This document shows positions 5,271 through 63,700 of a stretch of 64,000 nucleotides of DNA, piece after piece. A model generated the notes under the pieces. That model was not told the DNA's origin and ran no database searches. It saw only the letters and a list, made by a program, of their open reading frames with translations. Source of the DNA: Mytilus edulis (Eukaryota). A program made the translations under genes and the position numbers. The stretch covers positions 63,326,924 to 63,390,923 of the forward strand of contig NC_092349.1 of the NCBI RefSeq assembly GCF_963676685.1, in the 5' to 3' direction. Every line of letters starts with the position of its first letter. The stretch's first letter is position 1.

Positions 5271-5446
5271 CTGTAAAGATTAAATGTAATTTTAACAAAG
5301 TATACAAAATGTATGTACAAATAGGAATCATTAGTACCTGTATATCACATATTTGTTATCTTTTTAATCTAATAATACATAACTTCCTATAAATGCTTTC
5401 AAATTAAAGATGAATCTTACTAATTTCTTTGACATAATTTCTTACC

Positions 5447-23012: not shown

Positions 23013-23640
23013 CTTGTCATCGCAACTCCTCTCAAACCACACAACAGAATTTCACGAAACCTTTTCAGATAATAAGAACATACTATGTAGTTGTGCATAT
23101 CGACGGGAAATTGCGATTCAATTTTTTTTCTAGGAGTTACGCCCCTTTGAACTTATTTACTTTAATGTACTACTGCAACAGTTTGTCATCGCAACTCCTC
23201 TCAAACCACACAACAGAATTTCACGAAACCTTTTCAGATAATAAGGACATACTATGTAGTTGTGCATATCAACGGGAAATTGCGATTCAATTTTTTTTCT
23301 AGGAGTTACGCCCCTTTGAACTTATTTACTTTAATGTACTACTGTAACAGTTTGTCATCGCAACTCCTCTCAAACCACCAAACAGAATTTCACGAAACCT
23401 TTTCAGATAATAAGGACATACTATGTAGTTGTGCACATCGACAGGAAATTGCGATTCAATTTTTTTTCTAGGAGTTACGCCCCTTTGAACTTATTTACTT
23501 TAATGTACTACTGCAACAGTTTGTCATCGCAACTCCTTTGAAACCACACAACAGAATTTCATGAAACTTTGTAGATAATAAGGACATACTACGTAGATGT
23601 GCATATCGACAGGATATTATGATTCAATTCAAAAAAAGGG
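23013..23640 (+). repeat. 169-bp tandem repeat, about 3.7 copies, in intron 1 of gene B
   Basis: tgtcatcgcaactcctctcaaaccacacaacagaatttcacgaaacc… recurs at 23014, 23183, 23352 and 23521. Track ORFs 22825..23471 are artefacts of the repeat. Confidence 0.85.
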
Positions 23641-36558: not shown

Positions 36559-38259
36559 TTAAGATTGGGATTGAGGAACAGCAGTATTAAATCTGCCCGT
36601 TCTGTCAATGAAATGTGCCACTGTTTGTAATTTGGCTTTTGTCTCTTCTGTGTTTTCGCCGTCCAGTCTTGTCAGCATAGTAGCTAAATTCAAGTTTCTG
36701 ACCCCGACCTCTTTGGATATTTGGTGTAGCATATCTTCTCGTTCTTTTTCATAGTAGGGACACTCCAGAAGGAAATGTTGAGGCGTTTCAGGTGCTCCAC
36801 AGTTGCATGACTCTATGGCGTTGGTTTGGCCTACTCGGTTCTTGTAGTAATTCAGTTCTGTATAGCCAGTTCTTAGTTGGGCGAATATACTGAAATGTCT
36901 CTTAGTTGGGAAATCATACATAATTGAGTGTTTTGTAGTTGGTATTTTTTCATAAAGGTCCCTGCCTCTCTCAGATATTTCCCATCTTCTCTGCCATTTA
37001 TTTCCTGTACTTTTGTATGCTGCTTGTTTGACGTCCTGTAGTGTTATGACGTTATTTTCCGGTGGTAATTCTTTTGCTTCCTCTGCCGCTGTTTTTGCAA
37101 GGATGTCAGCCTCATCATTACCAACTATGTTGGCATGTCCTGGTGTCCATGCTACAATTACATTGAGTCCTTTTTGCCTAAGATGTTCAATATTTTCTTT
37201 TATTTCTCTTATTATGGAGATGTAGCTGTTTGGGGCCCAGTTCAGTGTAAGTAATCCCACGGCGCTTTGACTGTCAGAGAAAATTTTGATTCTTTGTATT
37301 GCATTGTAAATGTTTTCTGTAATGCAGTATTCTAGGACCATGAGAATTGCTATGAGTTCCGCTAGAAGGATGGATCCTCTTTGTGCCACAGGTCTATGTA
37401 ATCTGGTAGCAGGTTTAATGTGTTCAGCATAGATAATTGCACCTGCTCCACAGGGTCCTGGGTTCCCTAGGCATGATCCATCTGTAAACGATATTGCTTG
37501 TTCTTGTGTGCAGTCTCCCATGAGTTGGTTAATGGTTTCCTGGCAAAGTTCCTGTTGCTCATTTGTCCTTGATTTTGAGTTGCCTAGTTGACTCCAATAT
37601 AAAGGTTTTGATTGAGTCATTTGAGTTTCTCCCAGTCTGTAGGTAAACTCTGGTTCTATAAGATTGATGTTTATCTTTGTCTGTTTTTCCATTTCTGCTG
37701 CTTGGCTTAGTGCTTTGCCCATTGGTGTTGGATACTTGTCATATGCGTCATGTTCTTCATACCTCACAAGTTGCTGTTTGATTGGTTCCTGTGCAGATTT
37801 GGATTTAATCTTTGCAATCTCTTTAATGGCTATTTGTTCTAGTCTCAGGTCTATTGGCATAACTCCTGATTCCACTTCTAGTGCTTCTCTGCCAGATGTT
37901 GTAGGCATATCCATGCATAGGATAAGTGCTTTTCTCTGTACTCTGTCAAGTTTTTGCAGGTCTTTTGGTTCTGCTATTTGCCAGGCCGGACTACAATATT
38001 CCATGACTGATCTGACTAGACTGTAGTATAATTGTAATAACTTTTCTGTCTTTAATTTGCTGATCTGTCGCACTTCTCTCAGAATAGTTAAGTTACGGTT
38101 TGCTCTCTTTTCGATTGCATCAATGTGTTTACTGAAGGTCATTTTCTCGTCCATAATGATTCCAAGAAGCTTTGGTGTTGAGTTGTATTTCAGTTCTTTA
38201 CCTTGAATCAAAATGCGTTTGTCCTCTTCATCGATGTTTTTTTTTTTGAAAAGATGCAT
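36559..38259 (-). CDS. LINE ORF2, C-terminal part (RT thumb, RNase H, Cys-rich tail), out of frame with the N-terminal part
   Basis: 566-aa ORF. The RNase H domain includes FTDGSCLGNPGPCGAGAIIYAEH, with the DE..D residues present. The C-terminal tail CNCGAPETPQHFLLECPYYEKER is typical of LINE ORF2 ends. The ORF overlaps the 751-aa ORF around the poly-A tract at 38226-38236. Confidence 0.8.
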   Translation of the reverse strand: MHLFKKKNIDEEDKRILIQGKELKYNSTPKLLGIIMDEKMTFSKHIDAIEKRANRNLTILREVRQISKLKTEKLLQLYYSLVRSVMEYCSPAWQIAEPKDLQKLDRVQRKALILCMDMPTTSGREALEVESGVMPIDLRLEQIAIKEIAKIKSKSAQEPIKQQLVRYEEHDAYDKYPTPMGKALSQAAEMEKQTKININLIEPEFTYRLGETQMTQSKPLYWSQLGNSKSRTNEQQELCQETINQLMGDCTQEQAISFTDGSCLGNPGPCGAGAIIYAEHIKPATRLHRPVAQRGSILLAELIAILMVLEYCITENIYNAIQRIKIFSDSQSAVGLLTLNWAPNSYISIIREIKENIEHLRQKGLNVIVAWTPGHANIVGNDEADILAKTAAEEAKELPPENNVITLQDVKQAAYKSTGNKWQRRWEISERGRDLYEKIPTTKHSIMYDFPTKRHFSIFAQLRTGYTELNYYKNRVGQTNAIESCNCGAPETPQHFLLECPYYEKEREDMLHQISKEVGVRNLNLATMLTRLDGENTEETKAKLQTVAHFIDRTGRFNTAVPQSQS

Positions 38260-40463
38260 ATTTCAGTTTTGTCTAGGTTGATGTTTACTCTCCACTTTTG
38301 AGTCCATTTCACTGCCTTTGTGATGTCATCCTTCATTCTATCTTTGAGTTCCAGTATCTGGTCTGGTTGAGCCGTTTGCCAGAGTGTTCCGTCATCAGCA
38401 AATTTGGTGTAGTCTCCTAGAATGTCTCCCAGTAGGTCGTTGATAAAGATGTTGAATAATGTGGGAGCCAGAACTGATCCTTGTGGTAGCCCTATCTTTG
38501 TTTCAAATTCTTCACCTACATAGTTTTCGAAGATGCATCTTGCCATTCTGTTATTTAGGAAATCTTTAATCCAGGCCCATGTTTTTCCTCTTATACCCAA
38601 ATGGTGTAGTTTTACTAGTAGTCCCTCTCGCCAGATTGAATCGTATGCCTTTTCAAGATCAATAAGACATGCAAGGGTGATTTCTCCTTTATTGAATTTT
38701 TCTATTGTGTTCTGAATAAACCTGATCAGGCAGTTTGATGTTGAGTGTTTTTTCCTGAATCCTTCTTGTTTTTCTTCTATAAGCTTCATTCCTTCTATGA
38801 ACGCTGCCAGCCTGTTAAGAACAATTCTTTCAGTAATTTTGCACATGACACTGGTTAGACTTATTGGTCGGTATGATGATGGTGAGTAGTAATTGGTTTT
38901 TCCTTGTTTCCTCAGGAATTTTATGTTTGCTGTCTTCCATTCCTGTGGTAGCCGGCCATGTTTTAGTGTGAGGTTCACCATAGTTCGTATTGCTTCTATG
39001 AGGTTTTCTCCGGCAAACTTAAATAGTTCTGGGAAGTGGCCGTCAGCTCCAGGCGATTTACCTATTTCTAGTAGGTATATTGCTGCCTCAACTTCATCCG
39101 TGGTAACCTCATAGTCCAATTTATGTTCTCTTTTTGTCAATCTTTTCTCTAATTCACATATTCTTTTGTATTCCTCTTGAGTCTGTTTGTAGAACTCTTC
39201 GTCAAATTCATCAGTCTTTAGATGCTTACCCTCAAAAAATGTTTTTTGCAAAATTTTACATTTTTCTTGATTTGAAAAGGCTGGTGGGTCGTCTTGGTCT
39301 ATTAGTGGTAGGATGGTATTGCAATCTTTCTTTTTGGTCAATTTCTTATAAGTTGTCCATACCTCTTTTGAGTTTCTTGATGTATTGATCTGGTCTACTA
39401 GGTGTTCACTCCAATCATTCATAGCTTTTTCTTTCTCATTTTCAAACTTTTCTTCTGCTGTAACAAGGGCTTCTTTATTTTGTGGGATGTTTCTCTTCCT
39501 ATATTGCCTTTGTTTATAGTTTAAGTTTTTCTTTGCCTGATTAACATCATAATTCCACCATGGAGGTTTAGTTGATTTTTTTTCTTTCATCTCTTTTTGG
39601 CAGATAACTTCCTGCATCGTTTTATCAATAGCCGCTTTAAGTGATTGGTATACTTCATCTACATTATCATTGCTTGGATTGTTCAGTAGCCATTCTTCCA
39701 TGTTCTTTTCTGCCTGTTCTTTCCATTTATTCCAGTCTACTTTGTTAATTTGCCATACTTTCCTTTTTGTTAAGTTGTTTTGTTCCTTTTTGCATACATC
39801 AAGTTCTGTTAGTATACATATATGGTCAGATCGTATGTTTTCATGGACTAGTGTTGAACAGTTGTGCACTTTACTAATAGTGCTGGGTGTTATAATGACT
39901 AAGTCAATGACACTTTTGGTATTTCGTCTTGTAGGCTGGCCATCATTAACGCACAGCATGTCTGTTTTGGTCAAGAAGTTTTCAATTATTTCTCCTGCCT
40001 TGTTTGTCTTGTCATTGTTCCATTCTAAGCTTTTAGCATTAAGGTCTCCCATTATAATCAGTTCATGCTTGTTGTTTTGTTGTACCTTTTGAACTTTGGT
40101 AGTTAGTTCTTCAAGTTGTTTTGTTTCTTCTGGTGGAATGTAGGGTACTAGCAGATTGAATATGATGTTGTTATCTGTGTGTATGGTAGCTGCTACACTT
40201 TCATAGTTTGTGTCTTCAAAGTCTGTGCATTTAGTGACTGTGAAATTGGTTTTGTGAGTGTTGATGCAAATAGCCACGCCCCCGCCTTTTCTTCCTTTAC
40301 GTGGTTTATCAAACACTTGCCAGTCTAAAAAAGTTAGTTTTTTATTCTCTTCTTGGTGTGTTTCATTTAAACAAACAATATCTACATCATAACTATTTAC
40401 AATATGTACAAGTTGCTGATAGGCCGTACTAATGGCCTGTGCATTCAGGAAGAGGAGTTTCAT
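38208..40463 (-). CDS. LINE ORF2, N-terminal part (APE-type endonuclease plus reverse transcriptase)
   Basis: 751-aa ORF. The N-terminus LNAQAISTAYQQL…VDIVCLNETH is an exo/endo/phosphatase fold. RT motifs follow, including LIDLEKAYDSI and FADDGTLW. The ORF terminates inside an A11 run. Confidence 0.8.
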   Translation of the reverse strand: MKLLFLNAQAISTAYQQLVHIVNSYDVDIVCLNETHQEENKKLTFLDWQVFDKPRKGRKGGGVAICINTHKTNFTVTKCTDFEDTNYESVAATIHTDNNIIFNLLVPYIPPEETKQLEELTTKVQKVQQNNKHELIIMGDLNAKSLEWNNDKTNKAGEIIENFLTKTDMLCVNDGQPTRRNTKSVIDLVIITPSTISKVHNCSTLVHENIRSDHICILTELDVCKKEQNNLTKRKVWQINKVDWNKWKEQAEKNMEEWLLNNPSNDNVDEVYQSLKAAIDKTMQEVICQKEMKEKKSTKPPWWNYDVNQAKKNLNYKQRQYRKRNIPQNKEALVTAEEKFENEKEKAMNDWSEHLVDQINTSRNSKEVWTTYKKLTKKKDCNTILPLIDQDDPPAFSNQEKCKILQKTFFEGKHLKTDEFDEEFYKQTQEEYKRICELEKRLTKREHKLDYEVTTDEVEAAIYLLEIGKSPGADGHFPELFKFAGENLIEAIRTMVNLTLKHGRLPQEWKTANIKFLRKQGKTNYYSPSSYRPISLTSVMCKITERIVLNRLAAFIEGMKLIEEKQEGFRKKHSTSNCLIRFIQNTIEKFNKGEITLACLIDLEKAYDSIWREGLLVKLHHLGIRGKTWAWIKDFLNNRMARCIFENYVGEEFETKIGLPQGSVLAPTLFNIFINDLLGDILGDYTKFADDGTLWQTAQPDQILELKDRMKDDITKAVKWTQKWRVNINLDKTEICIFSKKKTSMKRTNAF

Positions 40464-41514
40464 TCTGTGTATTCAGTATGCTGTAAAGTCTCCTCTTGTT
40501 GATTATTTCAAGATATTTTTCGCACTTTGTTGATGTTGCTTGGTGTATGTTCCCACAGTTTACGCAACACGGGGTGTTTTTGCAGTCTTTAATCTTGCAG
40601 TTTTCTTTCCCACAGTTTGAACAGGTAGCTATGTTTAGACAGCGCTTGCCAATGTGTCCAAATTTGTTGCAATTGTAGCACCTAACAACTTTAACAGGTT
40701 GTTCTGCTTGAAATTTAGAGTATGTTGTTGTGCCGGGGTGGCAGTATCCTTTCGAGGTGATAGCTTTTTTAACTTCCCCGTGGTCAGTAAAGGTTACTTT
40801 TACTACTGGCATAAGTTTCCCAGTGTCTCTGTACTTTTTTCTCTTCACTTCTTTTATTTTATATAGGTGTGACAGATCTAATGATAGATTTTCTTCTGAT
40901 AGATGGACAGGAATATTATGTAGGTAACAAGAGTTTGTTCCGTGGTTTATAGATCTTGGTTTGTGTGCCACAGACTTTTCGCCAAATACGGATGTATTTA
41001 TTGGCCAGGATTTAATGATTATGTCCCTTGTTTTTTGGTCTTTCAGGTGGATAGCTATTCCCCCTTTTGGTAGGCTATACGCCTCTTCTATTTGATCTTC
41101 AAGTGCTTTGATTTTTGTTAACTCTTTTCTAATTGTTGTACTGTCTATAGCTGTGTTTGGCTGTTCTATGTTGTCTATAATTATAATTTTTTCTGGGTCT
41201 TTCTTCTCTCTTAGTGCCCTTGGTAGTTTTCCTTCTGTATTCTGCTTATGGTTATTACTTTGCAGATAGCCTTGTCCTATTGTTTTTGTGATCTCTAGTA
41301 ATTTATCAATTTTCTGGTCTGTTTTGGTATCACTAGTTGTTTGATGATACTCAGCTGTTAGTAGTATATATGGTTGCTTTATGATGCAGAGTGCACATGG
41401 GAATTTAATACCTGTACTTATAATTTTTCCTGCATCCTCTGTTGTGTATCCTGCACATACACTGTGCCACCACTTATTGCACAGATCGCATTCAAGCCAG
41501 GTGATTTCTTTCAC
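40429..41514 (-). CDS. LINE ORF1 gag-like protein with N-terminal PHD-type zinc finger and three CCHC zinc knuckles
   Basis: 361-aa ORF. The PHD-type finger is WLECDLCNKWWHSVCAGY…CALC. The zinc knuckles are CYNCNKFGHIGKRC, CSNCGKENCKIKDC and CCVNCGNIHQATSTKC. The ORF overlaps the ORF2 start by about 35 nt. Confidence 0.8.
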   Translation of the reverse strand: MKEITWLECDLCNKWWHSVCAGYTTEDAGKIISTGIKFPCALCIIKQPYILLTAEYHQTTSDTKTDQKIDKLLEITKTIGQGYLQSNNHKQNTEGKLPRALREKKDPEKIIIIDNIEQPNTAIDSTTIRKELTKIKALEDQIEEAYSLPKGGIAIHLKDQKTRDIIIKSWPINTSVFGEKSVAHKPRSINHGTNSCYLHNIPVHLSEENLSLDLSHLYKIKEVKRKKYRDTGKLMPVVKVTFTDHGEVKKAITSKGYCHPGTTTYSKFQAEQPVKVVRCYNCNKFGHIGKRCLNIATCSNCGKENCKIKDCKNTPCCVNCGNIHQATSTKCEKYLEIINKRRLYSILNTQNETPLPECTGH

Positions 41515-41974: not shown

Positions 41975-42830
41975 AAAACTTGGTAACGGTCAAGATCCCC
42001 CACCCTAAACCATATATATTCATGTATGGGACAATATAACAAATCATATGAAATATAGGTGGAGGTCGTGGGAGAATTTATAACGGTCGAGATCCACAAT
42101 CTTAAACAATATATATTTATGTATGGGACAATATTACAAATCAAATGAATTATAAGGGGTCCCTATGGTCACTGTACACCCTCCTGTTTGAGAACTCGGA
42201 AAAATTCCAGATCATCACCCCTTGACCATATATACTCATGTATAAGACTATATATATAATAAATCAAATGAAATATAGGGGAAGTCCCTGTGGTCACCCT
42301 ACCCCTCATGTTTAAAAACTTTGAAACAGATGGGATCCCCAACTCTAAATTAAATGAAATATAGGGGGAGTCCCTGCAGTCACCCTACCCCTCCTGATTG
42401 AGAAATTGGAAACAGTCGAGCTCCCACCTTTAAATTAAACCATATATATTCATGTATGAGAACTAATCAAATGAAATATAGGGAGAGTCCTTAGGGTCAC
42501 CCTACCCACTCCTGTTTGATAACTTAGAAACAGATGAGATCCCCACCCCTCAACCATATATATTTACGTATTGGACAATATAACAAATCAAATGAAATAT
42601 AGGGGAAGTCACTGGGGCCCCCACCCCTCCTGTTTGAAAACTTGATAACGGTCGAGATCCCCACCCATAAACCATATATATTCATGTATGGGACAATATA
42701 AAAAATCAAATGAAAAATAGGGGTAGTCCCTAGGATCACCCCACACCCTCTTGTGTGTGTTTTGAGAACTTGTAAAAGATTGAGATACCAACGCCTAAAC
42801 CATATTCATTCCTGTTTGTCATTTCAAAAA
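41975..42830 (+). repeat. About 125-bp satellite, about 6.5 copies, abutting the LINE 5' end
   Basis: Units contain ccatatatattcatgtatgggacaatataacaaatcaaatgaaatataggggaagtccct…cctgtttga. Confidence 0.85.
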
Positions 42831-47149: not shown

Positions 47150-48260
47150 TTTAGCTCACATGGCCCGAAGGGCCAAGTGAGCTTATGCCATCACTTGGCA
47201 TCCGTCGTCGTCCGTCGTCGTCTGTCGTCGTCCGTCGTTGTCTGTCGTCGTCTGTCGTCGTAAACTATTTCAAGAATCTTCTCCTCTGAAACTACTAGGC
47301 CAAATACTTCCAAACTTTAACTGAATGTTCCTTAGGGTATCTAGTTTATAAATGTATACCCGTTGTTTGGTTGCTTCCCCTGAATTGGAAATTTTAAGGA
47401 AATTTTGCTGTTTTTGGTTATTATCATGAATATTATTATAGGTAGAGATAAACTGTAAACAGCAAAAATGTTCAGCAAAGTAAGACCTAAAAATAAGTCA
47501 ACATGACTGAAATGGTCAGTTGACCCCTTTAGGAGTTATTGCCCTTTATAGTCAATTTTTAACCATTTTTCATAAATCTTAGTTATCTTTTACAAAAATC
47601 TTCTCCTCTGAAACTACTGGGCCAAATTGAACTAAACTTGGCCACAACCATCATTGGGGTATCTAGTTTGAAAATTTTGTCCGGTGACCTGGCCAACCAA
47701 CCAAAATGGCTGCTGTTACTTAAAATAGAACATAGGGGTCAAATGCAGTTTTTGGCTTATATCTCAAAAACTAAAGCATTTAAAGCAAATCTGACGGAGT
47801 AAAAATGTTCATTAGGTCAAGATCTATCAGCCCTGAAATTTTCAGATGAATCAAACAACCCATTGTTGGGTTGCTGCCACTTAATTGGTAATTTTAAGGA
47901 AATTTTGCAGATTTTGGTCATTATCTTGAATATTATTATAGATAAAGATAAACTGTAAACAGCAAAAATGATCAGCAAAGTAAGATCTACAAATAAGTTA
48001 ATATGACCAAAATTGTCAATTGACCCCTTAAGGGGTTATTGTCCTTTAATGACAATTTTTCACAATTTGTTCATCATATTTGCTAACTTTAAAAAATCTT
48101 CTTCTCTAAAACTACTCAACCAAATTCAACCAAACTTCATTTGAATGATCAGTAGGGTGTATAAAATAAAGTTTGTGTTTTATTTTCTATTTCGTCAAAA
48201 AACATGGCTGAAGGCATTGTTTACCAGGTGAGCGATTCAGGCTCTTGAGAGCCTCTTGTT
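47150..48260 (+). repeat. Partial copy of the composite macro-repeat: hairpin, (CGT)n, 490-bp units, ggctcttgagagcc tail
   Basis: agctcacatggcccgaagggccaagtgagct at 47157-47187, (cgt/cgtctgt)n at 47200-47270, and units at 47590-47910. Lies between genes B and C. Confidence 0.8.
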
Positions 48261-52766: not shown

Positions 52767-52931
52767 ATGGGTACTATAACATGGACGTTTGTAGTTGGTA
52801 CCGTTACCTTGGTGATGACATACATTGGAATAAGGCTGTACAGATATTTGAAATGGCTGAGATATGTCCATAAAACTTTATCCAAATTACCCGGTCCAAA
52901 ACCACACTGGTTATTTGGAAATATTTTCCAG
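52767..52931 (+). CDS. CYP4-like P450 gene C, exon 1 (MGTITWTFVVGTVTLVMTYIGIRLYRYLKWLRYVHKTLSKLPGPKPHWLFGNIFQ)
   Basis: ATG at 52767, donor gtaatt. ORF track 52767..53024. Confidence 0.85.
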
Positions 52932-53366
52932 GTAATTTATAAACAATTCAGGATAATAATATATATATATATATATATCATACATTTTGAAATGTCATCT
53001 CTTAAATTTGTCTTTTGTTATTAAAAAAAAAGGATAATAGCTATAAGTAGTAGCATGTTGCTTTGTAATCATGTAAAAAAATATACTTTTGTTGGCAGGC
53101 AGGAAACCAATATCGTTCATTATAGCGTTCATTATTTTAGGTATATGTCATTTAGGCAGCAAATCAATCAGATAATTTAGGAAAAAGGGGGAGGGGTCAT
53201 GGGTTTTAACCTTCTTTTAAAAACATTTGGATGTGCCCCCGCAATTAAAGCATAGTTATAATTAGAGTAAAATTTTGTTGGTCTCTTCTTGATTCCTTGC
53301 ATTTTGGGTTGAGACACAATTCAATTTATAGAGTCAACTTCATGTTTCATTTTTTGTGTTTTGCAG

Positions 53367-53568
53367 ATAGGAAATTTTAGTGAATTCCATTATAAATGTC
53401 ATGAAGAATTCATTGTGCAGAAAAAAGTGAAGATATATGTGTTTTGGTTGTCAACATTCTTTCCAACTGTGATGCTGGCACATCCAGATACCATCAAAGA
53501 AGTCATGAGGTCTAATTCACCAAAGCCTACGGTAGGACCAGGGTATCCATTCCTTGTACCATGGCTAG
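53367..53568 (+). CDS. CYP4-like gene C, exon 2 (IGNFSEFHYKCHEEFIVQKKVKIYVFWLSTFFPTVMLAHPDTIKEVMRSNSPKPTVGPGYPFLVPWLG)
   Basis: Acceptor ttttgcag, donor g|gtataa (weak). 202 nt. Confidence 0.8.
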
Positions 53569-54904
53569 GTATAAAAATATTTCAGATCCTTTCAATAGTA
53601 TTGTTTTTTCAAGTGTTCTGTACAGGTGGATTCATTATTTTTCGTGGGTTACCATTTTTTGTGGATTTTATGGGTATTGATAAACCACAAAGGAGTAGGT
53701 CTGGTAAGGGCCGATTTTGGCCTAAAATTTCAGGTTTATTTAACGAATGTTTTTGGACACTTTTTAAACACTTAAGTGTCTATTTCAATTGATTCGATTA
53801 GTTTATGTGAAAGATTTTTACTGATTTAGTCATAAAAAACGCTCTGATTCAAGCTTAAATATGAAAAATCTATCAAATATGCAAAAAAACGTCACTTTTC
53901 AGATGGTTTTTGTTAAAAATGAAAGTGGCCGCATCCTTGTTCATCCTCAACCTTTATATATGTTTTGTATTATCATCAAATACTTACATTTCAATATTAT
54001 GAATGAACACGAATGCGGCCAATTTCATTTTTACACCGTCTAAAAATTAACCTAAATGCTAAAAGTTTGAAGAGTTCAGTAATTTAGCATGACTTAATGA
54101 TGCTAGAACGCGATATCTGTGCATTGTATTGTCAAAAAAACAGCTCATATTTATGAAGCAGAAGCATTTTACTTTCCAAAATATAGCTTAAAGATAACAT
54201 TTTCACAATTTTCTAAAACTGCCATATTTTGGGGCCAAAAAGGGGTCTTACTGAACCTACTCCTTTTCATGTTTTTAACAAATCACGAACTTTCTATTGG
54301 TTTGAATCCAGACTTTCACTTACCGCTATATCAAATATCATTGTTAGGAAAATACTTTTTTTAGTATCAGCTAAAATAAATGAATCTACAGTACCTTAAG
54401 GGAAAAAGGTGATATGGGGTGACAAACTTAATGAGATCGATGGAAAGAGGCTCTGGACAGGGAATTTTGAATATTTTTATTTTTTAATTTCTTTACATTT
54501 TTTGTTCTACTAAACATGCTTTCAAATATGTTTTGCCTATTTTGGCGTTAATATTGATTCACTTATAGGGTCTTTGCATCGGAACTAAACACATTTATTA
54601 AAAAACCAGTTGTTGGCATGACACGGGTTATGTTCTTCTCATATATGTTATGATGGTATGATACTAAACCCCTAACGGGAAGGATTGTGCCTGATATTCA
54701 TATGATGAAATCATAATCTTTCAATCAGTTTAATTGAAGTCTGGAGCTGGCATGTCAGTTAACTGCTAGTAGTCTGTTGTTATTTATGTATTATTGTCAT
54801 TTTGTTTATTTTCTTTGGTTACATCTTCTGACATCAGACTCAGACTTCTCTTGAATTGAATTTTAAATGTGCGTATTGTTATGCATTTACTTTTCTACAT
54901 TGGC

Positions 54905-55215
54905 TAGAGGTATAGGGGGAGGGTTGAGATCTCATAAACATGTTTAACCCCGCCGCATTTTTGTGCCTGTCCCAAGTCAGGAGCCTCTGGCCTTTGTTAG
55001 TCTTGTATTTTTTTAATTTTAGCTTCTTGTGTACAATTTGGAAATTAGTATGGCGTTCATTATCACTGAACTAGTATATATTTGTTTAGGGGCCAGCTGA
55101 AGGACGCCTCCGGGTGCGGGAATGTCTCGCTACATTGAAGACCTGTTAGTGACCTTCTGCTGTTGTTCTTTGTATGGTCGGGTTGTTGTCTCTTTGACAC
55201 ATTCCCCATTTCCAT
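54905..55215 (+). repeat. Interspersed repeat family R-A, full copy (about 320 bp)
   Basis: Nearly identical to 61305-61640. Starts gaggtatagggggagggttgagatctcataaacatg. Confidence 0.85.
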
Positions 55216-55627
55216 TCTCAATTTTATTTGGTCTTTTCAATTGAATATTCTTTATAATTTGGCATCTAATAATTTTTATTCGATATTCTCGGCCAAATTT
55301 TTCTCTATATCTTCAATTTTTCACCCATTGTTCTTGATTCTAAAAACCCCATATAGACCCCCATCTAACAATACAACATGTACAATTTTATGTAAAAATG
55401 ATAAAGTTTGATTATTATGAAATTCTTTTAATGTGTTCATTTCAGGGGGAGATAATTTAAGGAAATGTGAATCAGTTTTATTTTTTAATAGTATTTTGCA
55501 ATATATCAAGAAAACAAGAGCTGGTACCTCCATTTTTATTTTATTTTCTAAAATAAATTAGTTTCATAAAATAATATTAATACCTTAGCTATATTAAATA
55601 CATTTTTGTTTATGATTGTCTTGCATT

Positions 55628-55750
55628 AAAAACATATTTAATTATCTCCCCCTGAATTAAACATATTAGTTATCTCCCCCTGAATTAAACATATTAAATT
55701 ATCTCCCCCTGAATTAAACATATTAATTATCTCCCCCTGAATTAAACATA
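55628..55750 (+). repeat. 33-bp tandem repeat x4 (ttaattatctccccctgaattaaacata)
   Basis: Four direct copies, lying in intron 2 of gene C. Confidence 0.85.
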
Positions 55751-55940
55751 TTAATTTAAATGATACATTCTTAGGTTAAATCAAAGATACTTGTGTCTAT
55801 ATAAATAAAGCAATACATGTACTTGTTCATTCCTTAAGTTTAGTATAGAAATATTGAATTTCTAAGATTATATAATTGAATTCTTTGTAACACATCAAAA
55901 TTTGACATATCTTACGAAATGTAAAAGATATTGACAAATA

Positions 55941-56396
55941 TAGAATGAAATTCAAAACAGTGTAGCTGTGGCCATTGGTTGACACATTAAAATCATCCAT
56001 TGACTGGGACAATTTAGGTGAACGTTTGTATGTAACGACCAATGCTCACTATGTACTTTTTAAAGACATTTAAACTATGGGGTCACCAAAGGTTCTCAAC
56101 ACCTAAATAAAGTAATTCGAAAAATTAATCAGAAATAACACGATATTTTGATTTATATCAATTATATAAATCAAAACACAAAGGTTATTCCTGATTAATT
56201 TTTCGAATTATTTTATAATTAAAGGCGTTAAGAAACCTTTGGTGACCCCACAGTTTAAATGTCTATCGTAGGTACGTCGTGAACAGTGGTCGTTACAGAC
56301 AAACGTTCACGTAAATTGTCCCAGTCAATGGATGATTTTAATGTGTCAATCAATGGCCACAGCTACACTGTTTTAAATTTCATTCTACTTCAGATT
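55941..56396. repeat. 456-bp foldback hairpin with about 225-bp arms at about 90 percent identity, in intron 2 of gene C
   Basis: tagaatgaaattcaaaacagtgtagctgtggccattggttgacacat… | centre near 56165 | …atgtgtcaatcaatggccacagctacactgttttaaatttcattcta. Confidence 0.85.
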
Positions 56397-56871
56397 TATA
56401 TTATTTTGTAAAATGAAAGAATAGACTGGCATTGCAAATTTCAATAGAAATACTGGAGTGAAATTTTTACTAATAGTTTTGACATTGCAACAGGGAACAA
56501 TGATTGTGTTGAGCAAAGACAATTTATGAAACTATCAGGACTTTCTTTATCTAATGTTCATTTTAACAGAAAACTTAAGATTGACAGAATTCCTCGAGAA
56601 GCATTTATATCAGATATATAAAACTGAAATTGGAAATGGGGAATGTGTCAAAGAGACAACTACTGACCAAAAAGTAGAAAATCCAGCATGGGGAGGCAAG
56701 CTTCAGCTTCAGAAAACATTCTTTTAAGAAAATGCATAAAGTATAAAGATAAATCTATTCTATTATCTTCATTGCTGCATTATTATCAGAGTAAAATGAA
56801 AAATTTGTACATTTCTTCTTTCATTTAGTCCTACAGATTGTTTTCATTTTTCATTCCTATTCATTTTATAG

Positions 56872-56999
56872 GTCAAAGTCTTCTATTATCAAATGGAGCT
56901 AAATGGGAGAGAAATCGTCGATTGTTGACGCCAGCATTCCACTTCAGTATATTGACAGGGTATTTTAAGATTTACAACGAAGTCACAGATGTATTAATG
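56872..56999 (+). CDS. CYP4-like gene C, exon 3 ([43 protein letters not shown])
   Basis: Acceptor ttttatag, donor gtgagt. 128 nt. Confidence 0.85.
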
Positions 57000-57034
57000 G
57001 TGAGTAAAACATGAATGACTTTCTTCAATACTGT

Positions 57035-57215
57035 GGATTCATTATTATTTGTTGGATACCAATTTTTCGTGGGTTTCGTAGATACAGGTGAACCACAAAA
57101 TCAACTGTTCAATACAACTGTTTTAATAGGCTTTGTATACAGATATTGTCAAAACCACGAAATCAAGTTTTCAGCAATCTACGAAAATTAATACCCTAGA
57201 AAATAAATGAATTCC
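57035..57215 (+). mobile_element. MITE (CTGTGGATTCATT TIR family) copy immediately 3' of gene C exon 3
   Basis: ctgtggattcattattatttgttggataccaatt…aaataaatgaattcccagtat. Confidence 0.75.
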
Positions 57216-57708
57216 CAGTATTCCATTATTAAATAGAATTAATGATTTAACCAATAAAAATAAAAAAAAGATGTGGTATAATTTTCCACATAGTCATTTA
57301 TAAAAGGCCCTATTTAATGAAAAATATAAAACAATTCAAGTAAGATAACTAACAGCCTAATTGATGCAAACATAATGTCTAGTAAATGAATGATAAGCTT
57401 TTTAATAAAAGTAGTTTCAATTGAATCTCTGATACGATATAGGAGTTTAAGTAAAGATTTGAGGAATTTTAGAAAATATTACTGTTGAGAAATAAACATA
57501 GGAGAAGCTGTTCCTATCTAGTTTTATCATGTTGATAAAGTAGTACATTTGTTAAATATAAGAAGATTTTCAAGGTACTATTATTATGCTTATTCAAATC
57601 AAACATGCTGAAGTATACAATCGAAAAACAAAAAAAAAACAAATATAAAATCCTTACTGATTTGATCACATAGCTTCCACATAATTCTTTTGAACACATT
57701 TATTTTAG

Positions 57709-57833
57709 GATAAATTGTCAACTATGTGTGAAAAGAGAAAATACATAGATATATTCAAACCAGCTAGCATGGCTACATTAGACACTCTACTTCAGTGTGC
57801 CTTGGGATATAAGGGAGATGTACAACAAGTTGG
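57709..57833 (+). CDS. CYP4-like gene C, exon 4 (DKLSTMCEKRKYIDIFKPASMATLDTLLQCALGYKGDVQQVG)
   Basis: Acceptor tattttag, donor gtatgt. 125 nt. Confidence 0.85.
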
Positions 57834-58347
57834 GTATGTAAAATATTTTGTTAATAATTCTATAAAATTGTAGTACGTATATGATATTACTTTTCATCTT
57901 CAATTGATCAAAAATTGATAGAAAAAAAATATTCTTGTACAAAAGATATAGGAAGATGGGTTATGAGTGCCAATGTGACAACTCTCCATCAAAGTCTCAA
58001 TTTTTAAAAGTAAACTATATAGCTATTATATGTCAAAGTACGGTCTTCAACATGGAGCCTAGGCTCATACTGAACAACAAGCTATATAGTGCCCCAAAAA
58101 TCATTTTAAACGATTCAAATAGGAAAACTACGGAAGCGTATTAGGGACATAGTAAAAATAAAATTGACAGTGAACTTTTTTTTCAAAGTCGATAGCCGTA
58201 GAAAAGGAGTCTAAAAACGAGAAACAAGAAACACTTGTGTTTTAAATACACTAATAAACAACAATCACTGAACAACAGGCTTCTGACTTATGACAAGTGC
58301 ATAAAAAGTTAGCAGGTTTAACGTAATAGTTGCTTCCTTATTTACAG

Positions 58348-58410
58348 AGAACACCATCCATATGTAATAGCAGTGAATCGACTTGGTTTTCACATTCAGG
58401 AAAGATGTTT
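58348..58410 (+). CDS. CYP4-like gene C, exon 5 (EHHPYVIAVNRLGFHIQERC)
   Basis: Acceptor tttacag, donor gtgagt. 63 nt. Confidence 0.8.
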
Positions 58411-59155
58411 GTGAGTATTATCAATTAATATAACTATACAAAATTCTTTGGAAGATGTTGTCTTTTTTCTTTCTGAAAATAAAGGGCAATATTTTATAAT
58501 TTAATATTTCTATCAAGAAATTAAGATTGAAACAATAAAATAAAAAAATTAATTCAATGGAATCCAATTGTAATGAATATTTCATTGAGAATTTTTAAAT
58601 TCTTTGATTTACCATTAAAAACCTTGTATTAGACTTTGTGGTTTTGATTAACTGTCGTGAGTACAGATTGGGGAGGGGGTTCTTCACTCCTGTACTCCAT
58701 CAACATACCAAAATTGAATGAAAACAATGAATAAAAGAACTTTCATTTCTAGAGACTTCGTTTTCTTTTAGGGCAAAGATATATAAAACAGTTTTTATGC
58801 CCCATTGATGGGCATTATGTTTTCTGGTCTGTGTGTCCGTCTGTTTGTTTGTTCGTTAGTCCATCTGTTGGTCCGTTCGTCCTGCTTCAGGTTTTTAATC
58901 GAGGTAGGTTAAAGTTTTTGGTCAAGGTAGTTTTTGATGAAGTGGAAGTCTAATCAACTTGAAACTTAGTATACATGTTCCCTATGATATGATCTTTCTA
59001 ATTTTAATGCCAAATTAGAGATTCTACCCCATTTTCACGGTCCACTGAACATAGAAAATGATAGTGTGGATGGGGCATTCGTGTACGGTACTTAGGACCA
59101 ATCTTTTTGCATATCTATTATGTACATGTTTAACTTTAATGAATATTTTGGTTAG

Positions 59156-59282
59156 ATATATTCACCACTACCCAGAGTTCATATACAGATACCTTACAGC
59201 CAATGGCAGAGAATTCTTCAAACTTTGTGATTATGTTCATAAATTCTCAAAAGATATCATCTCTACAAGAAGAAAAGAACTG
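59156..59282 (+). CDS. CYP4-like gene C, exon 6 (YIHHYPEFIYRYLTANGREFFKLCDYVHKFSKDIISTRRKEL)
   Basis: ORF track 59058..59315. Acceptor tggttag, donor gtaggt. 127 nt. Confidence 0.85.
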
Positions 59283-59639
59283 GTAGGTACTCTCATTGGG
59301 GTATTTGGAGGATAAATGTTAATACAAAATCAAATGTTTAACGATGAATATTTTTTAAAGGTTTGTTCATGCAGGCTTTGGCAGAACCATGAACACAAAT
59401 ATCAACACTATAAAAAAATTCCTAAATCAAAGAAAATTGATGAAAATAAATAAATCCACAGTATACATAGTTAAAAAAAAACATTTCTTTTAAATTTCAA
59501 AATTAGCAAAGCTAGGGTTTATTTGTCTATTACAATTTCTACATGATTTAATAAAGAAAAACATTTTTTTTTGGCAGGGGAGATAATTGAAACTATTAGA
59601 TACTAAATAAAAGTATGATGTTATATTATAAGTTATATG

Positions 59640-59900
59640 GTTCGCTACTGACCCCATACGGATCCATAGAGGGTGAGGCCGGAGGATCCGTAGGGGGTCA
59701 GTAGTTAACCGTATAACGAATTTATCGGACGCTGGACTTTTTCTGCGGCGTTTTGTTGAAAAATAAACAATGAAACACAACAACATTAATAGATGACGTC
59801 GCCATTAACGCGTCATGAACCCCATATGAAACTTACTAACCCCATACGGTCTCATAGGGGGTCACCACGTGACGGCATTTAACCAATCACAACGTAATAA
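59640..59900. other. GC-rich island with an 18-bp perfect hairpin and clustered CRE, E-box and CCAAT motifs, in intron 6 of gene C
   Basis: ctgaccccatacggatcc…ggatccgtagggggtcag. tgacgtc at about 59796, cacgtg at about 59865 and ccaat at about 59882. Confidence 0.5.
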
Positions 59901-60142
59901 TTCATCTGTGGTCTGATAAAATGCAATATTTTCTTTTGTCTTGATTTGACAGAACCTTATCATTGTATGTTTGATCAATTTGCATAGAAACTATTTTGAC
60001 CTATTTTTTACTATGATTATCAACCTATGATAGATTTAAGATGAAAATCTAATATATTTTATAAATGATCATCTAAGAAAGCAAATTTAATGTATACTCA
60101 AACTGAAGATATGAATTCATGCAATTCTACTCTTCTTTTTAG

Positions 60143-60275
60143 ATTGAAAATAAAGAAACAGAGAAGAAGAAACACTTGGATTTCCTGGATATATTAATAA
60201 CAGCCAAAGATGACAATGGTGTCGGACTGACGGATGATGAAATCAGGGCAGAAGTCGATACCTTCCTTTTTGCTG
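60143..60275 (+). CDS. CYP4-like gene C, exon 7 ([45 protein letters not shown])
   Basis: Acceptor ctttttag, donor gtaatt. 133 nt. Confidence 0.85.
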
Positions 60276-60912
60276 GTAATTTTTTAACAAAAAAGTTCAA
60301 CTTATATTGAATTTAGTATTGCCGGTAACCACCAATTGTTTGCCTGTTGTATATATGTAAATTAATATTCCCATATGCTGCCATTCTGTGTGATCTACCT
60401 AAAGTTTTAAGTTGAAGAAAACTTAACTTTTGATAGATTTGTGATTGTCATTTCTATTCTTCTCAACGATTATTTCTGATTGAATATGATTACTAGTAGC
60501 TAAGATATGTCTTCCATTTCATGTTGAGTCATGTGCAAGGAAAAGAGTTTGCCAGTATATCTTATGTAATAAAATTAAAAAAACTAAAGTAAAGAGAAAC
60601 TGTTCACTATGCCATTAACAAATATGATTTAAAGGAGAAGCGGGGTATACATTAATGATACAGAAACCCAACCAAAAAAATAACCGAAAGACATCTGAAG
60701 GGCAACAAAGTCTTCAACAACAAACAGATGTCTTAACAATATCATAGTCAACCTCAAAATCGTCCAGAGTCGATAAAACTTGTGATTTATTTTTAAGCAT
60801 TTAATTATTTCTTTGTGTTTGATATCTAGATCCTTATAGAAGTAGAAGTTATAAAACTCAGATCTTAACTATATTTTGCATACCGCTTTATATGGAAGAG
60901 TTTATGTTCTAG

Positions 60913-61036
60913 GTCATGACACAACATCTTGTGTGCTTAGTTGGAGTATGTATTGTTTGGGTAAATTCAAAGCTATCCAGGACAAAGTTTATCAGGAAAT
61001 TAAACAGGTCATTGGCAGCAAAAATACTGTTGACAG
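60913..61036 (+). CDS. CYP4-like gene C, exon 8 (GHDTTSCVLSWSMYCLGKFKAIQDKVYQEIKQVIGSKNTVD)
   Basis: Acceptor tgttctag, donor gtaaaa. 124 nt. Confidence 0.85.
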
Positions 61037-61304
61037 GTAAAATTATATTTTATTTTAGTTCTCTTTCTATAAAGTTGCATAAAAATACCTGTACCTTTGA
61101 TTACAAAGCATGTCATTTTGTTCACAATTTGTAGCTTGAAAACAAGTTTTACATGGTGACTGAATTTATTTTTTTTATAATTTATTAGATATAGTATTAG
61201 AAAATTACATTTTTGCAAATGAATATAAAATTATGTCATCATATAGTTATACACCTACTGTGGATTATTTATTTTTGAGCGTACCATTTTTCGTTGATTG
61301 AGGA

Positions 61305-61640
61305 AGACTATAGCTAGAGGTATAGGGGGAGGGTTGAGATCTCATAAACATGTTTAACCCCGCCGCAATTTTGCGCCTGTCCCAAGTCAGGAGCCTCTGG
61401 CCTTTGTTAGTCTTGTATGATTTTAAATTTTAGTTTCTTGTGTATAATTCGGAGTTTAGTATGACGTCCATTATCACTGTACTATTATGCATATTTTAGG
61501 GGCCAGCTGAAGGACACCTACGGGTGCGGGAATTCTCGCTACATTGAAGACCCATTGGTTGCCTTCGGCTGTTGTTTGCTCTATGGTCGGGTGGTTGTCG
61601 CTTTGACATATTCACCATTTCCTTTCTCGATTTTATTGTA
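61305..61640 (+). repeat. Interspersed repeat family R-A, full copy
   Basis: Same element as 54905-55215, lying in intron 8 of gene C. Confidence 0.85.
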
Positions 61641-62183
61641 ATTTTGTGGATATTTGATTTCATGGTTTTACCAAAGTCTGAATATATTCTTATAGAAAAA
61701 TCATTTAAGGTACCTTCACTAAAATAAATTTGGCTCCTTTAATTTTCACAAAATTTTAACAAAGTATTTACTTTGACCCTCTAACAAAAATGTAAAAATT
61801 TCAAAAAATTTGAACCAACCGTTTTATCAGGAAAATTACACTGGTTATATAGCAGTTTGACCAACCCTTATTTTGATCATTGAGAAGCTTAATATTCCAT
61901 AAACAACACAAAGTAATTAAAACGTTTAGCTGATTTTACAGAGTTATTTCCCTGTAGTGTTAGGTACCACATTAATTCATCTTACAATGAAATATGGGAT
62001 TTTCAGGTTACCATGAAATCCACTAAAATTGGTATCAAATGAATAATAATGAATCCTCAGTATACAAGTTATCAGTTAAAAAAAAAATTTCATTGGAATT
62101 ATTTTTGTAATAAAAGCTCTATTATCATAAACATTCTTTCTAAAATATTATTTTTAAGTCTACAGTTCTTTTATTTTATTTAG

Positions 62184-62379
62184 TGAAGATCTATCAAATT
62201 TGAGATACTTGACGTGTTTCCTAAAGGAAGTAATGAGATTACATTCACCTGTATCCATAGTCAACAGAATGCTAGATCAACCTGTTGTTACCAATGGTGT
62301 AGAGATACCTGCTGGAATATTAATAGATCTGGGTATTTACCATGCTCAAAATCATCCTGATGTCTGGCAAAATCCTACA
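62184..62379 (+). CDS. CYP4-like gene C, exon 9 (EDLSNLRYLTCFLKEVMRLHSPVSIVNRMLDQPVVTNGVEIPAGILIDLGIYHAQNHPDVWQNPT)
   Basis: ORF track 62200..62451. Acceptor tttag, donor gtaggt. 196 nt. Confidence 0.85.
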
Positions 62380-62866
62380 GTAGGTCTTACAATATACAGA
62401 ACATATTTTTTTAGCCTTCCCTGGTTTTCTTACTACCATGTAATCTCTTAGTTTGTAAAAACATCTTCCTTTTAATCTTTACATAAAGTAGTGTAATTAT
62501 TACAAATGTGTAAATTCTAATTCCATGAGAGCATAGTTTGAATTTTATATACATTTTTAAAAGTACATGTAAACTGCTTCATAATTTGAACATGATTTTT
62601 AGATGAGCAGAAATGATGTTCCTACATAAAGATTAAAAATAAATGGTGGTGCAAATCTGAGAACAGCTGAGTCTTAATGTTTCTGTAAGGCTGTTCATTA
62701 TATTTAATTACACTAATACAATTTGTTAATTTAAATTGGTCCTTTTCTTATTGTTGTTAATGTGTATAAAAAATCAGATAATTTTATTATGTGACAGTAA
62801 TGATAGCAAATAATGAAAAACAAAAGGTTATATTGTGATCACAGCTTTGTTTATTTTCATTTCTAG

Positions 62867-62949
62867 GAGTTTAGACCAGAGAGATTTGAGGGAGACAAAC
62901 ATCATGAAATGGATCCATATAGCTTTACTCCATTTTCAGCTGGACCAAG
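62867..62949 (+). CDS. CYP4-like gene C, exon 10 (EFRPERFEGDKHHEMDPYSFTPFSAGP)
   Basis: Acceptor tttctag, donor gtaaat. 83 nt. The NCIG exon and the terminal exon are not found before 64000. Confidence 0.85.
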
Positions 62950-63700
62950 GTAAATATTTATCTGACCTTGATATGGGAGATAACTCATTACTGGTAATTA
63001 ATTTATACCTTTTTCTTCAAACTTTTTTCTTTTGGGAACAAGTTAATAAAAACTGCTTCTGTAATAAACCATGAGATTTGAGGGAAAAAGCACTATTGGA
63101 AAGATCTGTATAATAAGACATGTTTTGAGAAAAGGTGCCAAGTTATAAATGAGTTGTCTCCCATATCAATAAGGATAATCTCCCAAATTCACATCAGATC
63201 CTTGAACTTTAACTTCATTATTTGTTGGCTCCAGTAAGATATGTATCATCTCCAATATATACTGCATAAACCCCTGACTTAGATCAAGTGAATCTTACCC
63301 TGATTTTCAGCTCTTTCTTTCTCCAATACTAATCAGAGAAAGAAGAGCTTAAAACACAATACTTACTTGCCATGAAATTCTAAGCTAATAAAAAAATATT
63401 ATAATTCCAATTTTTATCTTCAAAAACCATCATGAAAGTTTTCTAAAACTTCAGTTGATTCAAGTGAAATATGAGTTATCTGCCATGTAAAGCAGAGATA
63501 TTTGTGCAAAATACTCCTTATTTGACATCTCCTTATAGTTGTGCTCCTATTTCTATGGTTAAAAGGTAAATATGAGTTAACTATTTAATAAACCAAAGAG
63601 ATATGAGGGATGCAGCTTTATGAGATGGATCCATATAGTTTGACCAAATATTTTTATTCAATAATGAGTTATCTCCCATATCAAGTATGGGATATATTGA
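62950..63700 (+). repeat. Decayed copies of gene C exon 10 plus flanks, scattered through the downstream intron
   Basis: 63060-63100 ccatgagatttgagggaaaaagcact. 63160-63260 ttgtctcccatatcaataag…ctccagtaagatatgtatcatctcc. 63597-63650 aaagagatatgagggatgcagctttatgagatggatccatatagtttgacc. 63660-63740 ttatctcccatatcaag…gtgaccaaggtaaaat. Confidence 0.7.

What the first reader, a model, noticed from the sequence alone, without database searches (positions are those of the whole stretch)
55941..56396. 456-bp near-perfect inverted-repeat hairpin inside gene C intron 2
Arms of about 225 bp at about 90 percent identity flank a palindromic centre. If transcribed with the host pre-mRNA, the structure could fold into a long hairpin RNA and be a source of endo-siRNA. 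It could also be a foldback or MITE insertion. No homologous copy is visible elsewhere in the window.
Basis: seen in the sequence. Interest (0 to 1): 0.5.

Follow-up and report, generated by a model that had tools for sequence, protein, structure and literature searches.

The report
Palindromic miniature transposon in an intron
The long hairpin-forming inverted repeat is real, but it is one copy of a short, non-coding, mobile DNA repeat (a foldback-type MITE) found at many unrelated places in the same kind of marine animal genome, so it is an ordinary transposon insertion in an intron, not a special hairpin-RNA gene.

Summary
The inverted repeat exists at window 55941-56387. The two arms are about 220 nt each, 97% complementary over the outer 100 nt and 86.5% overall. 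The predicted RNA hairpin has an MFE of -282.6 kcal/mol (z = -39). It lies in intron 2 of a CYP4-like P450 gene and has no second copy in the window.

It is not unique. Public metagenome assemblies hold copies 92.6-100% identical to the family consensus. At DNA level there are 13 different left-arm junctions and 5 full-length copies, and 27 spurious-ORF sequences sit on about 29 contigs. All copies start and stop at the same bases, with unrelated, AT-rich flanks. Every end is TA (TAGAATGAAATTC...GAATTTCATTCTA), and no longer target-site duplication (TSD) exists. The element has stop codons in all six frames.

The mismatches between the arms are shared by the copies, so all descend from one imperfectly palindromic master. 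The window copy has 3 private substitutions.

Best reading: a young, non-autonomous foldback-type MITE, probably moved by a TA-targeting (Tc1/mariner-type) transposase. That superfamily assignment is inferred, because no empty site or autonomous partner was found. The endo-siRNA idea could not be tested here and is not favoured. Ordinary; low interest.

The parts
55941..56387 (.). Whole foldback element, 447 bp, 33% G+C, non-coding
   Evidence: Homology to L001, L005, L010 and L011 starts and stops exactly here. Stop codons in all six frames.
55941..56159 (.). Left arm. The outer 100 nt (55941-56040) are 97% complementary to 56288-56387.
   Evidence: Arm alignment; fold.
56160..56164 (.). Apical loop (AATTA) at the palindromic centre
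   Evidence: MFE and centroid structures.
56165..56387 (.). Right arm. It differs from the left arm at the same positions in all copies.
   Evidence: Same-orientation identity between copies is 91-99%, against 83-86% when flipped.
55941..55942 (.). Left TA: a putative target-site duplication, or the element's own first two bases
   Evidence: TA precedes GAATGAAATTC (or a one-base variant) at all 13 left-arm junctions.
56386..56387 (.). Right TA: the putative second copy of the target-site duplication
   Evidence: TA closes all 6 right ends recovered. No longer direct repeat links the flanks in any of the 5 full copies.
53569..56871 (+). Host intron 2 of CYP4-like gene C (GT...AG, 3303 bp). The element lies 2372 bp from the donor and 484 bp from the acceptor.
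   Evidence: Homology-guided, inferred.

Best explanation
The hairpin is one insertion of a young, non-autonomous class II transposon of the foldback / MITE kind. The element is a 447-bp imperfect palindrome with no coding capacity. It must be moved in trans by a transposase encoded elsewhere that recognises the identical ends of its two arms. It landed at a TA inside an AT-rich stretch of intron 2 of a CYP4-like gene, after that gene diverged from its two neighbours in the window. It has since picked up only 3 private substitutions. Shown: the repeat, its exact boundaries, its dispersal to many unrelated loci, the TA at every end, the lack of ORFs, the shared arm asymmetry, and the low divergence. 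Inferred: that the TA is a target-site duplication, and therefore that the mobilising enzyme is of the Tc1/mariner (IS630-Tc1-mariner) type; and that this insertion is a neutral passenger. As a by-product the pre-mRNA will contain an imperfect duplex of about 220 bp. That duplex could be bound by dsRNA enzymes (ADAR, Dicer), but nothing suggests this locus was selected for that.
For: Dispersal and boundaries:
- A 20-mer from the arm found two metagenome contigs. L001 holds a full copy 98.9% identical to the window copy, and L002 a 91% copy. Their flanks are unrelated to the window.
- Translating the arm and searching for spurious ORFs found 15 protein clusters, holding 27 ORF sequences on about 29 ENA contigs. 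Their N- or C-terminal extensions differ outside the element.
- The loci fetched, plus the window, L001 and L002, give 13 distinct left-arm junctions and 5 full copies. All start TAGAATGAAATTC (single-base variants in L002, L008, L011). All ends recovered finish ...TTCATTCTA.
- The copies come from at least six assemblies, including Baltic Sea and Banyuls (SOLA) water samples.

Target site:
- Only TA is shared between left and right flanks.
- The two bases before the TA are A or T in 26 of 26 cases. By my own calculation 0.68^26 is about 4e-5, given 68% A+T.

Nature and age:
- Stops occur in all six frames.
- Copies are 92.6-100% identical to the majority consensus.
- Same-orientation identity (91-99%) exceeds flipped identity (83-86%), so the arm mismatches are inherited from one master copy.
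- The window copy has 3 private changes, 2 of which break complementarity between the arms.
- Neither paralogous CYP4 gene in the window carries the element.
- The window holds other small palindromic TIR elements at 8114-8273, 20384-20618 and 53914-54033, so such insertions are common in this genome.
- Bivalve genomes are reported to be rich in MITEs and Tc1/mariner elements (PMC10294476).
Against: - No empty site was recovered, so TA as a duplication cannot be told apart from TA as the element's own terminal bases.
- No autonomous element with matching ends was found or could be searched for.
- The terminal sequence GAATGAAATTC does not resemble the ends of Tc1, mariner or pogo elements that I recall (own knowledge).
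- Metagenome contigs may be chimeric across a repeat, so the paired flanks of L001, L005, L010 and L011 are less certain than those of the window.
- True genomic copy number is unknown, because no host genome could be searched.
Confidence: 0.8

Rival explanations
1. Mobile foldback element of another kind. The TA belongs to the element, insertion makes no duplication or a very short one, and the mobilising enzyme is not a Tc1/mariner transposase.
For: TA is invariant at all 19 ends recovered, which is equally expected if it is part of the inverted repeat. The first bases TAGAATGAAA loosely recall hAT-type ends such as Ac TAGGGATGAAA (own knowledge). No empty site was found.
Against: There is no 8-bp duplication in any of the 5 full copies, and no TTAA or TWA. 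That rejects hAT, piggyBac/Kolobok and PIF/Harbinger as usually defined. The arms contain no tandem subrepeats, unlike Drosophila FB elements. The strict A/T context around the TA fits TA-targeting transposases.
Confidence: 0.15
2. Hairpin-RNA (hpRNA) locus. The inverted repeat is kept because its transcript is diced into endo-siRNAs, or processed like a long miRNA precursor, that regulate a target or silence the transposon family.
For: The transcript would fold into a duplex of about 195 bp. It sits inside a transcribed gene. Four of 195 pairs show changes on both sides across copies; only 3 of 500 shuffles reach that. MITE-derived small RNAs are known in plants and humans (own knowledge).
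Against: The same sequence is dispersed at many loci, so this locus is not special. Most private substitutions break pairs. No match reaches any Rfam threshold; the best is 62.7 bits against a cut-off of 211. The arm matches no gene in the window. A survey of molluscs found no dedicated endo-siRNA pathway (PMC12479628), if the host is a mollusc. The double changes come from metagenome assemblies, where collapse of palindromic k-mers can create them.
Confidence: 0.04
3. A local inverted duplication, or an assembly artefact, confined to this intron.
For: There is only one copy in the 64-kb window. Palindromes are a known assembly hazard.
Against: Independent assemblies from several projects contain the same unit with the same ends and different flanks.
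Confidence: 0.01

Closest known systems
Tc1/mariner-derived (Stowaway-like) MITEs that are nearly all inverted repeat, e.g. zebrafish Angel and human MADE1 (named from my own knowledge)
   Same: Short, AT-rich and non-coding. TA at both ends. Arms that pair over most of the length into one hairpin. Many dispersed copies, often in introns. Insertion into AT-rich DNA.
   Different: At 447 bp with arms of about 220 nt it is larger than MADE1 (80 bp). Its terminal sequence resembles none of those families as far as I recall. TA duplication and a Tc1/mariner partner are not demonstrated here.
Bivalve MITEs in general (reported as abundant, mostly unclassified non-autonomous DNA elements; PMC10294476)
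   Same: Same class of element, in what is probably the same host group. The window holds several other small TIR elements.
   Different: Membership of a named bivalve family (Pearl, DTC84 and similar tandem-repeat-containing MITEs) could not be checked. This element has no internal tandem repeats.
Drosophila Foldback (FB) elements
   Same: Very long inverted arms that fold back on each other.
   Different: FB arms are built of tandem subrepeats, are kilobases long, and make a 9-bp duplication (own knowledge). None of this is seen here.
Drosophila hpRNA loci (endo-siRNA hairpins)
   Same: A long, imperfect, intramolecular RNA duplex if transcribed.
   Different: hpRNA loci are single or few-copy genes with complementarity to a target gene. 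This is a dispersed repeat with no detected target, and small RNAs were not testable.

Membership tests
MITE (miniature inverted-repeat transposable element) | Small size (under about 800 bp) and no coding capacity | tested here: met
   447 bp. Stops in all six frames; the longest stop-free stretch is about 36 codons.
MITE (miniature inverted-repeat transposable element) | Terminal inverted repeats | tested here: met
   The arms pair from base 1 to base 447. The outer 100 nt are 97% complementary.
MITE (miniature inverted-repeat transposable element) | Many dispersed copies with the same boundaries and unrelated flanks | tested here: met
   13 distinct left-arm junctions, 5 full copies, and 27 ORF sequences on about 29 contigs. 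Genome-wide copy number was not measurable.
MITE (miniature inverted-repeat transposable element) | Target-site duplication flanking each copy | tested here: inconclusive
   TA at both ends of 5 of 5 full copies, but no empty site. The protein search with reconstructed empty sites found only a LINE homologue. The alignment to the paralogous intron over the junction is weak: 3 of 200 shuffles score as well.
Tc1/mariner-type (Stowaway-like) MITE | TA duplication, and ends shared with an autonomous element encoding a DD(E/D) Tc1/mariner transposase | not testable with these tools
   No host genome or repeat library was available. The TA ends and A/T context are consistent.
hAT-derived MITE | 8-bp target-site duplication | tested here: not met
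   The eight bases on either side differ in all 5 full copies.
piggyBac / Kolobok or PIF/Harbinger-derived MITE | TTAA or TWA duplication | tested here: not met
   No TTAA or 3-bp direct repeat at the ends under any register.
Drosophila-type Foldback element | Arms composed of tandem subrepeats | tested here: not met
   Tandem Repeats Finder reports only a trivial 9-nt repeat at the centre.
hpRNA / endo-siRNA locus | 20-24-nt Dicer products from both arms, and a complementary target | not testable with these tools
   No small-RNA data. No target-like match in the window.
Any curated RNA family (Rfam 15) | Score at or above the family's gathering threshold | tested here: not met
   Nothing at gathering level. 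The best sub-threshold hit is 62.7 bits against 211, to a long plant miRNA hairpin model.

The most novel reading that the evidence does not exclude
The family may be actively kept palindromic. Positions 4/447, 24/427, 52/399 and 211/234 of the alignment show matched changes in both arms in some copies. This would mean the arms correct each other (intrastrand template switching or gene conversion), or that a folded single strand (DNA during transposition, or RNA) is itself the functional form. In that case copies transcribed within genes, like this one, could be a regular source of structured RNA for ADAR or Dicer in an animal group where the fate of long dsRNA is unsettled.
Probability: 0.08. 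Interest if true: 0.45.

Novelty: new member of a known kind. Interest (0 to 1): 0.15.

Why it matters
The main value is annotation. The striking hairpin should be masked as a transposon copy, not listed as a candidate RNA gene. The family consensus and its TA...TA boundaries can be used to mask the other copies.

It also gives a dated marker: a very young insertion, absent from the two paralogous CYP4 genes. If the insertion is polymorphic in the population, it would indicate recent DNA-transposon activity in the host.

A broader use is only potential. Intronic copies of such long palindromes are natural test substrates for asking what a mollusc cell does with endogenous long dsRNA: editing, dicing or nothing.

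Tried and rejected
- Viral-contig scan with a 22-mer from the arm: no match.
- Genome-contig scan with the 20-mer: one hit, in an Endozoicomonadaceae MAG. It is only a 21-nt match in 45-50% G+C bacterial DNA. About one such hit is expected by chance in 596 Gb, so it is not a copy.
- Exact look-up of the LINE ORF2 from the window, to identify the host: not on record.
- First protein search with a P450 exon: one unnamed ENA fragment, no taxonomy.
- Cluster look-up: no names.
- Literature search for the sample accessions: only PRJEB22997 (Baltic Sea water) was traceable.
- Empty-site search with translated reconstructed junctions of the window, L001 and L005: one hit, P0017, a LINE ORF2. Its C-terminal 109 residues match L001's right flank at 72%. 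The left flank is not homologous, so the LINE fragment ends at or near the insertion and the test is uninformative.
- Flanks of the full copies compared with all held sequence: no uninterrupted paralogue.
- Alignment of the reconstructed empty site to the equivalent introns of genes A and B: one 96-column, 66% alignment to gene A that crosses the junction without a gap. Its score was reached by 3 of 200 shuffles, so it is suggestive only.
- The larger inverted pair 55182-55227 / 56618-56663 was considered as the ends of a bigger element enclosing the hairpin. It was rejected: the left member is the end of a separate repeat family (54861-55228 = 61313-61637 = 4151-4346).
- Covariation as evidence for a selected structure: the signal is small. 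It is also unsafe, because palindromic repeats assembled from metagenomes with canonical k-mers can acquire symmetric variants and chimeric arms.

Full report

Yes. The sequence at 55941-56387 is a 447-bp imperfect palindrome.

- The repeat finder reports arms 55941-56094 and 56234-56387 (154 nt, 91% complementary), plus an inner pair at 56107-56139 / 56184-56216.
- BLAST of the element against the window finds its own reverse complement at 86.5% over 453 columns (E = 6e-149). Nothing else is longer than 31 nt.
- Aligning the left arm with the reverse complement of the right arm shows 3 mismatches in the first 100 nt. A poorly matching patch follows at about 100-125, and a few small indels lie nearer the centre.
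- As RNA the element folds into one hairpin of 195 pairs. The MFE is -282.6 kcal/mol, against -85.4 +/- 5.0 for shuffles (z = -39).
- As DNA the MFE is -184 kcal/mol (z = -37).

Otherwise the description holds.

**2. Context**

The window is eukaryotic and 32% G+C. It carries three CYP4-like P450 genes, a non-LTR retrotransposon, many tandem and dispersed repeats, and two type I hammerhead ribozymes in a 359-bp tandem repeat.

Gene C is on the + strand.
- Exon 1 begins MGTITWTF... near 52767.
- Exon 2 ends ...GYPFLVPWLG at 53568 and is followed by GT.
- Exon 3 starts at 56872 after AG and reads (G)[24 protein letters not shown].

The exon map rests on tblastn with a human CYP4V2 sequence that I wrote from memory, and on the paralogues in the window. 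It is good enough to place the exons, but it is not an annotation.

**3. Is it unique?**

No, and this decides the case.

*Direct search.* A 20-mer from the part where both arms agree was scanned against metagenome contigs and found two loci.
- L001 carries a full copy, 98.9% identical over 447 bp, with both 20-mer matches in inverted orientation and the same spacing as in the window.
- L002 carries a 91% copy whose right arm is cut short.
- Neither locus resembles the window outside the element.

*Search through spurious ORFs.* DNA searches of that collection were capped. I therefore translated the two longest stop-free stretches of the arm and searched for ORFs that gene callers might have called in other copies.
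- This returned 15 protein clusters, all from ENA metagenome assemblies.
- Together they hold 27 ORF sequences on about 29 contigs.
- Their sequences agree inside the element (RMKFKTVWLWPLIDTL......HSYTVLNFIL) and differ outside it.

*Junctions.* Fetching the contigs and adding the window, L001 and L002 gives 13 distinct left-arm junctions and 5 full-length copies (window, L001, L005, L010, L011).
- Every left end reads TAGAATGAAATTCAAAACAGTG, with one-base variants in L002, L008 and L011.
- Every right end recovered reads ...GAATTTCATTCTA or a one-base variant.
- All flanks are unrelated.
- Many contigs stop inside the element, at positions 136-341, as expected when an assembler meets a palindromic repeat.

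*Provenance.* The copies come from at least six assemblies. These include Baltic Sea water (PRJEB22997) and a sample labelled SOLA.

**4. Anatomy of the family**

- The element has stop codons in all six frames.
- It has no tandem subrepeats in its arms.
- Copies are 92.6-100% identical to the majority consensus. Full copies are 94-99% identical to each other.
- Each copy matches the window copy much better in one orientation (91-99%) than flipped (83-86%). The differences between the two arms are therefore inherited. All copies descend from one master that was already an imperfect palindrome, and the hairpins did not form independently.
- The window copy differs from the other copies at 3 private positions. 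Two of these break complementarity between the arms and one creates a pair. This is what neutral decay of a very recent insertion looks like.

**5. Target site**

In all 5 full copies the only sequence shared by the two flanks is the terminal TA. The eight, four or three bases on either side do not repeat. This rejects hAT (8 bp), piggyBac/Kolobok (TTAA) and PIF/Harbinger (TWA).

The two bases before the left TA are A or T in 26 of 26 cases. With 68% A+T in the window, 0.68^26 is about 4e-5 by my own calculation.

TA ends in an AT-rich context are the signature of Tc1/mariner-type insertion (established knowledge). But TA is itself a palindrome, so it can equally be the last two bases of the inverted repeat. 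Only an empty site can tell the two apart, and I could not obtain one.
- A protein search with reconstructed empty junctions found only a LINE ORF2 homologue. Its similarity to L001 begins at the insertion point and does not continue upstream.
- No uninterrupted paralogue of any flank exists in the sequence held.
- The best alignment of the reconstructed window site to the equivalent intron of gene A crosses the junction without a gap. It is only 66% identical, and 3 of 200 shuffles score as well.

The superfamily assignment is therefore an inference. I put it at roughly 0.6-0.65.

**6. Mechanism**

Most likely this is a non-autonomous class II element of the MITE kind, built as a foldback. 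A transposase encoded by a related autonomous element binds the identical outer parts of the two arms. It excises the unit and reinserts it at TA dinucleotides in AT-rich DNA.

This copy entered intron 2 of gene C after the three CYP4 genes diverged, because neither paralogue carries it. It sits there as a passenger, 484 bp from the acceptor site.

The window contains other small elements with terminal inverted repeats: 8114-8273, 20384-20618 and 53914-54033, the last in the same intron. A different window repeat has inserted into one copy of this family, at position 127 of L006. The genome is evidently full of such elements. That fits what is reported for bivalves (PMC10294476).

**7. The hairpin-RNA idea**

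The pre-mRNA would contain the duplex; that much follows from the fold. Whether it yields small RNAs cannot be tested here. Several points argue against a dedicated function.
- The sequence is a dispersed repeat.
- Most private changes in the copies break pairs.
- No Rfam family is matched. The best sub-threshold score is 62.7 bits against a cut-off of 211, to a long plant miRNA hairpin model, which reflects shape only.
- The arms match no gene in the window.

If the host is a mollusc, a survey of 32 species found no evidence of a dedicated endo-siRNA pathway, despite abundant inverted repeats. It suggested RNA editing as the likelier fate of such duplexes (PMC12479628).

The host was not identified directly. 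My guess of a Mytilus-type mussel rests on three things: the marine provenance of the copies, the 32% G+C, and the 359-bp hammerhead repeat. That repeat fits the 350-390-bp retrozyme repeats described for M. galloprovincialis (PMC7229834). It remains a guess.

**8. One loose end**

Four of the 195 pairs show changes on both sides in some copy: alignment columns 4/447, 24/427, 52/399 and 211/234. Only 3 of 500 shuffles reach four such pairs, and none of the slid controls shows any.

This could mean the arms correct each other, or that pairing is selected. However, two of the five full copies carry mixed combinations at 24/427 and 52/399. The copies also come from metagenome assemblies, in which the two arms share canonical k-mers. 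Symmetric variants and chimeric arms can therefore be artefacts. I treat this as unresolved and give it a low probability.

**9. Verdict**

- Observation confirmed, with a 9-bp correction.
- The siRNA reading is untested and unlikely to be the reason the sequence exists.
- This is a new member of a known kind: a family I could not match to a named one, because no repeat library was available.
- It is an ordinary feature, of low interest beyond annotation.

Noticed in passing
window 7-760 (hammerheads at 329-372 and 687-730, minus strand): Two 359-bp tandem units, 97.5% identical, each carry a type I hammerhead ribozyme that just passes the Rfam threshold (35 bits against 34). The unit size fits the 350-390-bp retrozyme repeats reported for the mussel Mytilus galloprovincialis (PMC7229834). 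L004 936-1505 holds a 67% relative.
   Followed up: partly
window 960-6050 (minus), 22510-45720 (plus), 52767-62950 (plus): Three CYP4-like cytochrome P450 paralogues lie in a cluster. Their exons are 72-91% identical at DNA level, and their introns are essentially unalignable. Gene C may run past the end of the window.
   Followed up: partly
window 36559-41514, minus strand: A non-LTR retrotransposon lies inside an intron of P450 gene B. ORF1 is Cys-rich (361 aa). ORF2 is split by a frameshift into 751 aa (APE-type endonuclease plus reverse transcriptase) and 566 aa (RNase H).
   Followed up: partly
window 8114-8273, 20384-20618, 53914-54033: Three further small self-complementary elements with terminal inverted repeats (160, 235 and 120 bp). 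The last is TA...TA-bounded and lies in the same intron as the finding. They suggest that palindromic MITE-like insertions are common in this genome.
   Followed up: no
window 55630-55756 and 55428-55460: A 28-bp unit (AAACATATTAATTATCTCCCCCTGAATT) is repeated 4.5 times in tandem, with one inverted unit about 200 bp upstream, just left of the foldback. It may be a separate tandem-repeat-containing element.
   Followed up: no
window 54861-55228, 61313-61637, 4151-4346; L006 3162-3320: A dispersed repeat family of about 330 bp ends in ...GACACATTCCCCATTTCCATTCTCAATTTTAT, and a partial inverted copy sits at 56618-56663. In L006 this family (94-96% identical) interrupts a copy of the foldback at element position 127.
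   Followed up: partly
L001 799-1118: The foldback copy in L001 directly abuts the start of a fragment encoding the last 109 residues of a LINE ORF2 (72% identical to P0017). Upstream LINE sequence is absent, so the insertion sits at or near the 5' truncation point of that LINE copy.
   Followed up: partly
window 14132-15270, 16314-18031, 23014-23629, 32519-33403, 41975-42818, 47358-48137: Several long tandem arrays with periods of roughly 160-500 bp. Some are shared between distant parts of the window (for example 16314-18031 with 47358-48137 at 86-87%).
   Followed up: no
L012 165-185: A 21-nt exact match to the arm lies in a 1.58-Mb contig of an Endozoicomonadaceae MAG. The surrounding DNA is 45-50% G+C with no further similarity, so the match is at chance level.
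   Followed up: yes
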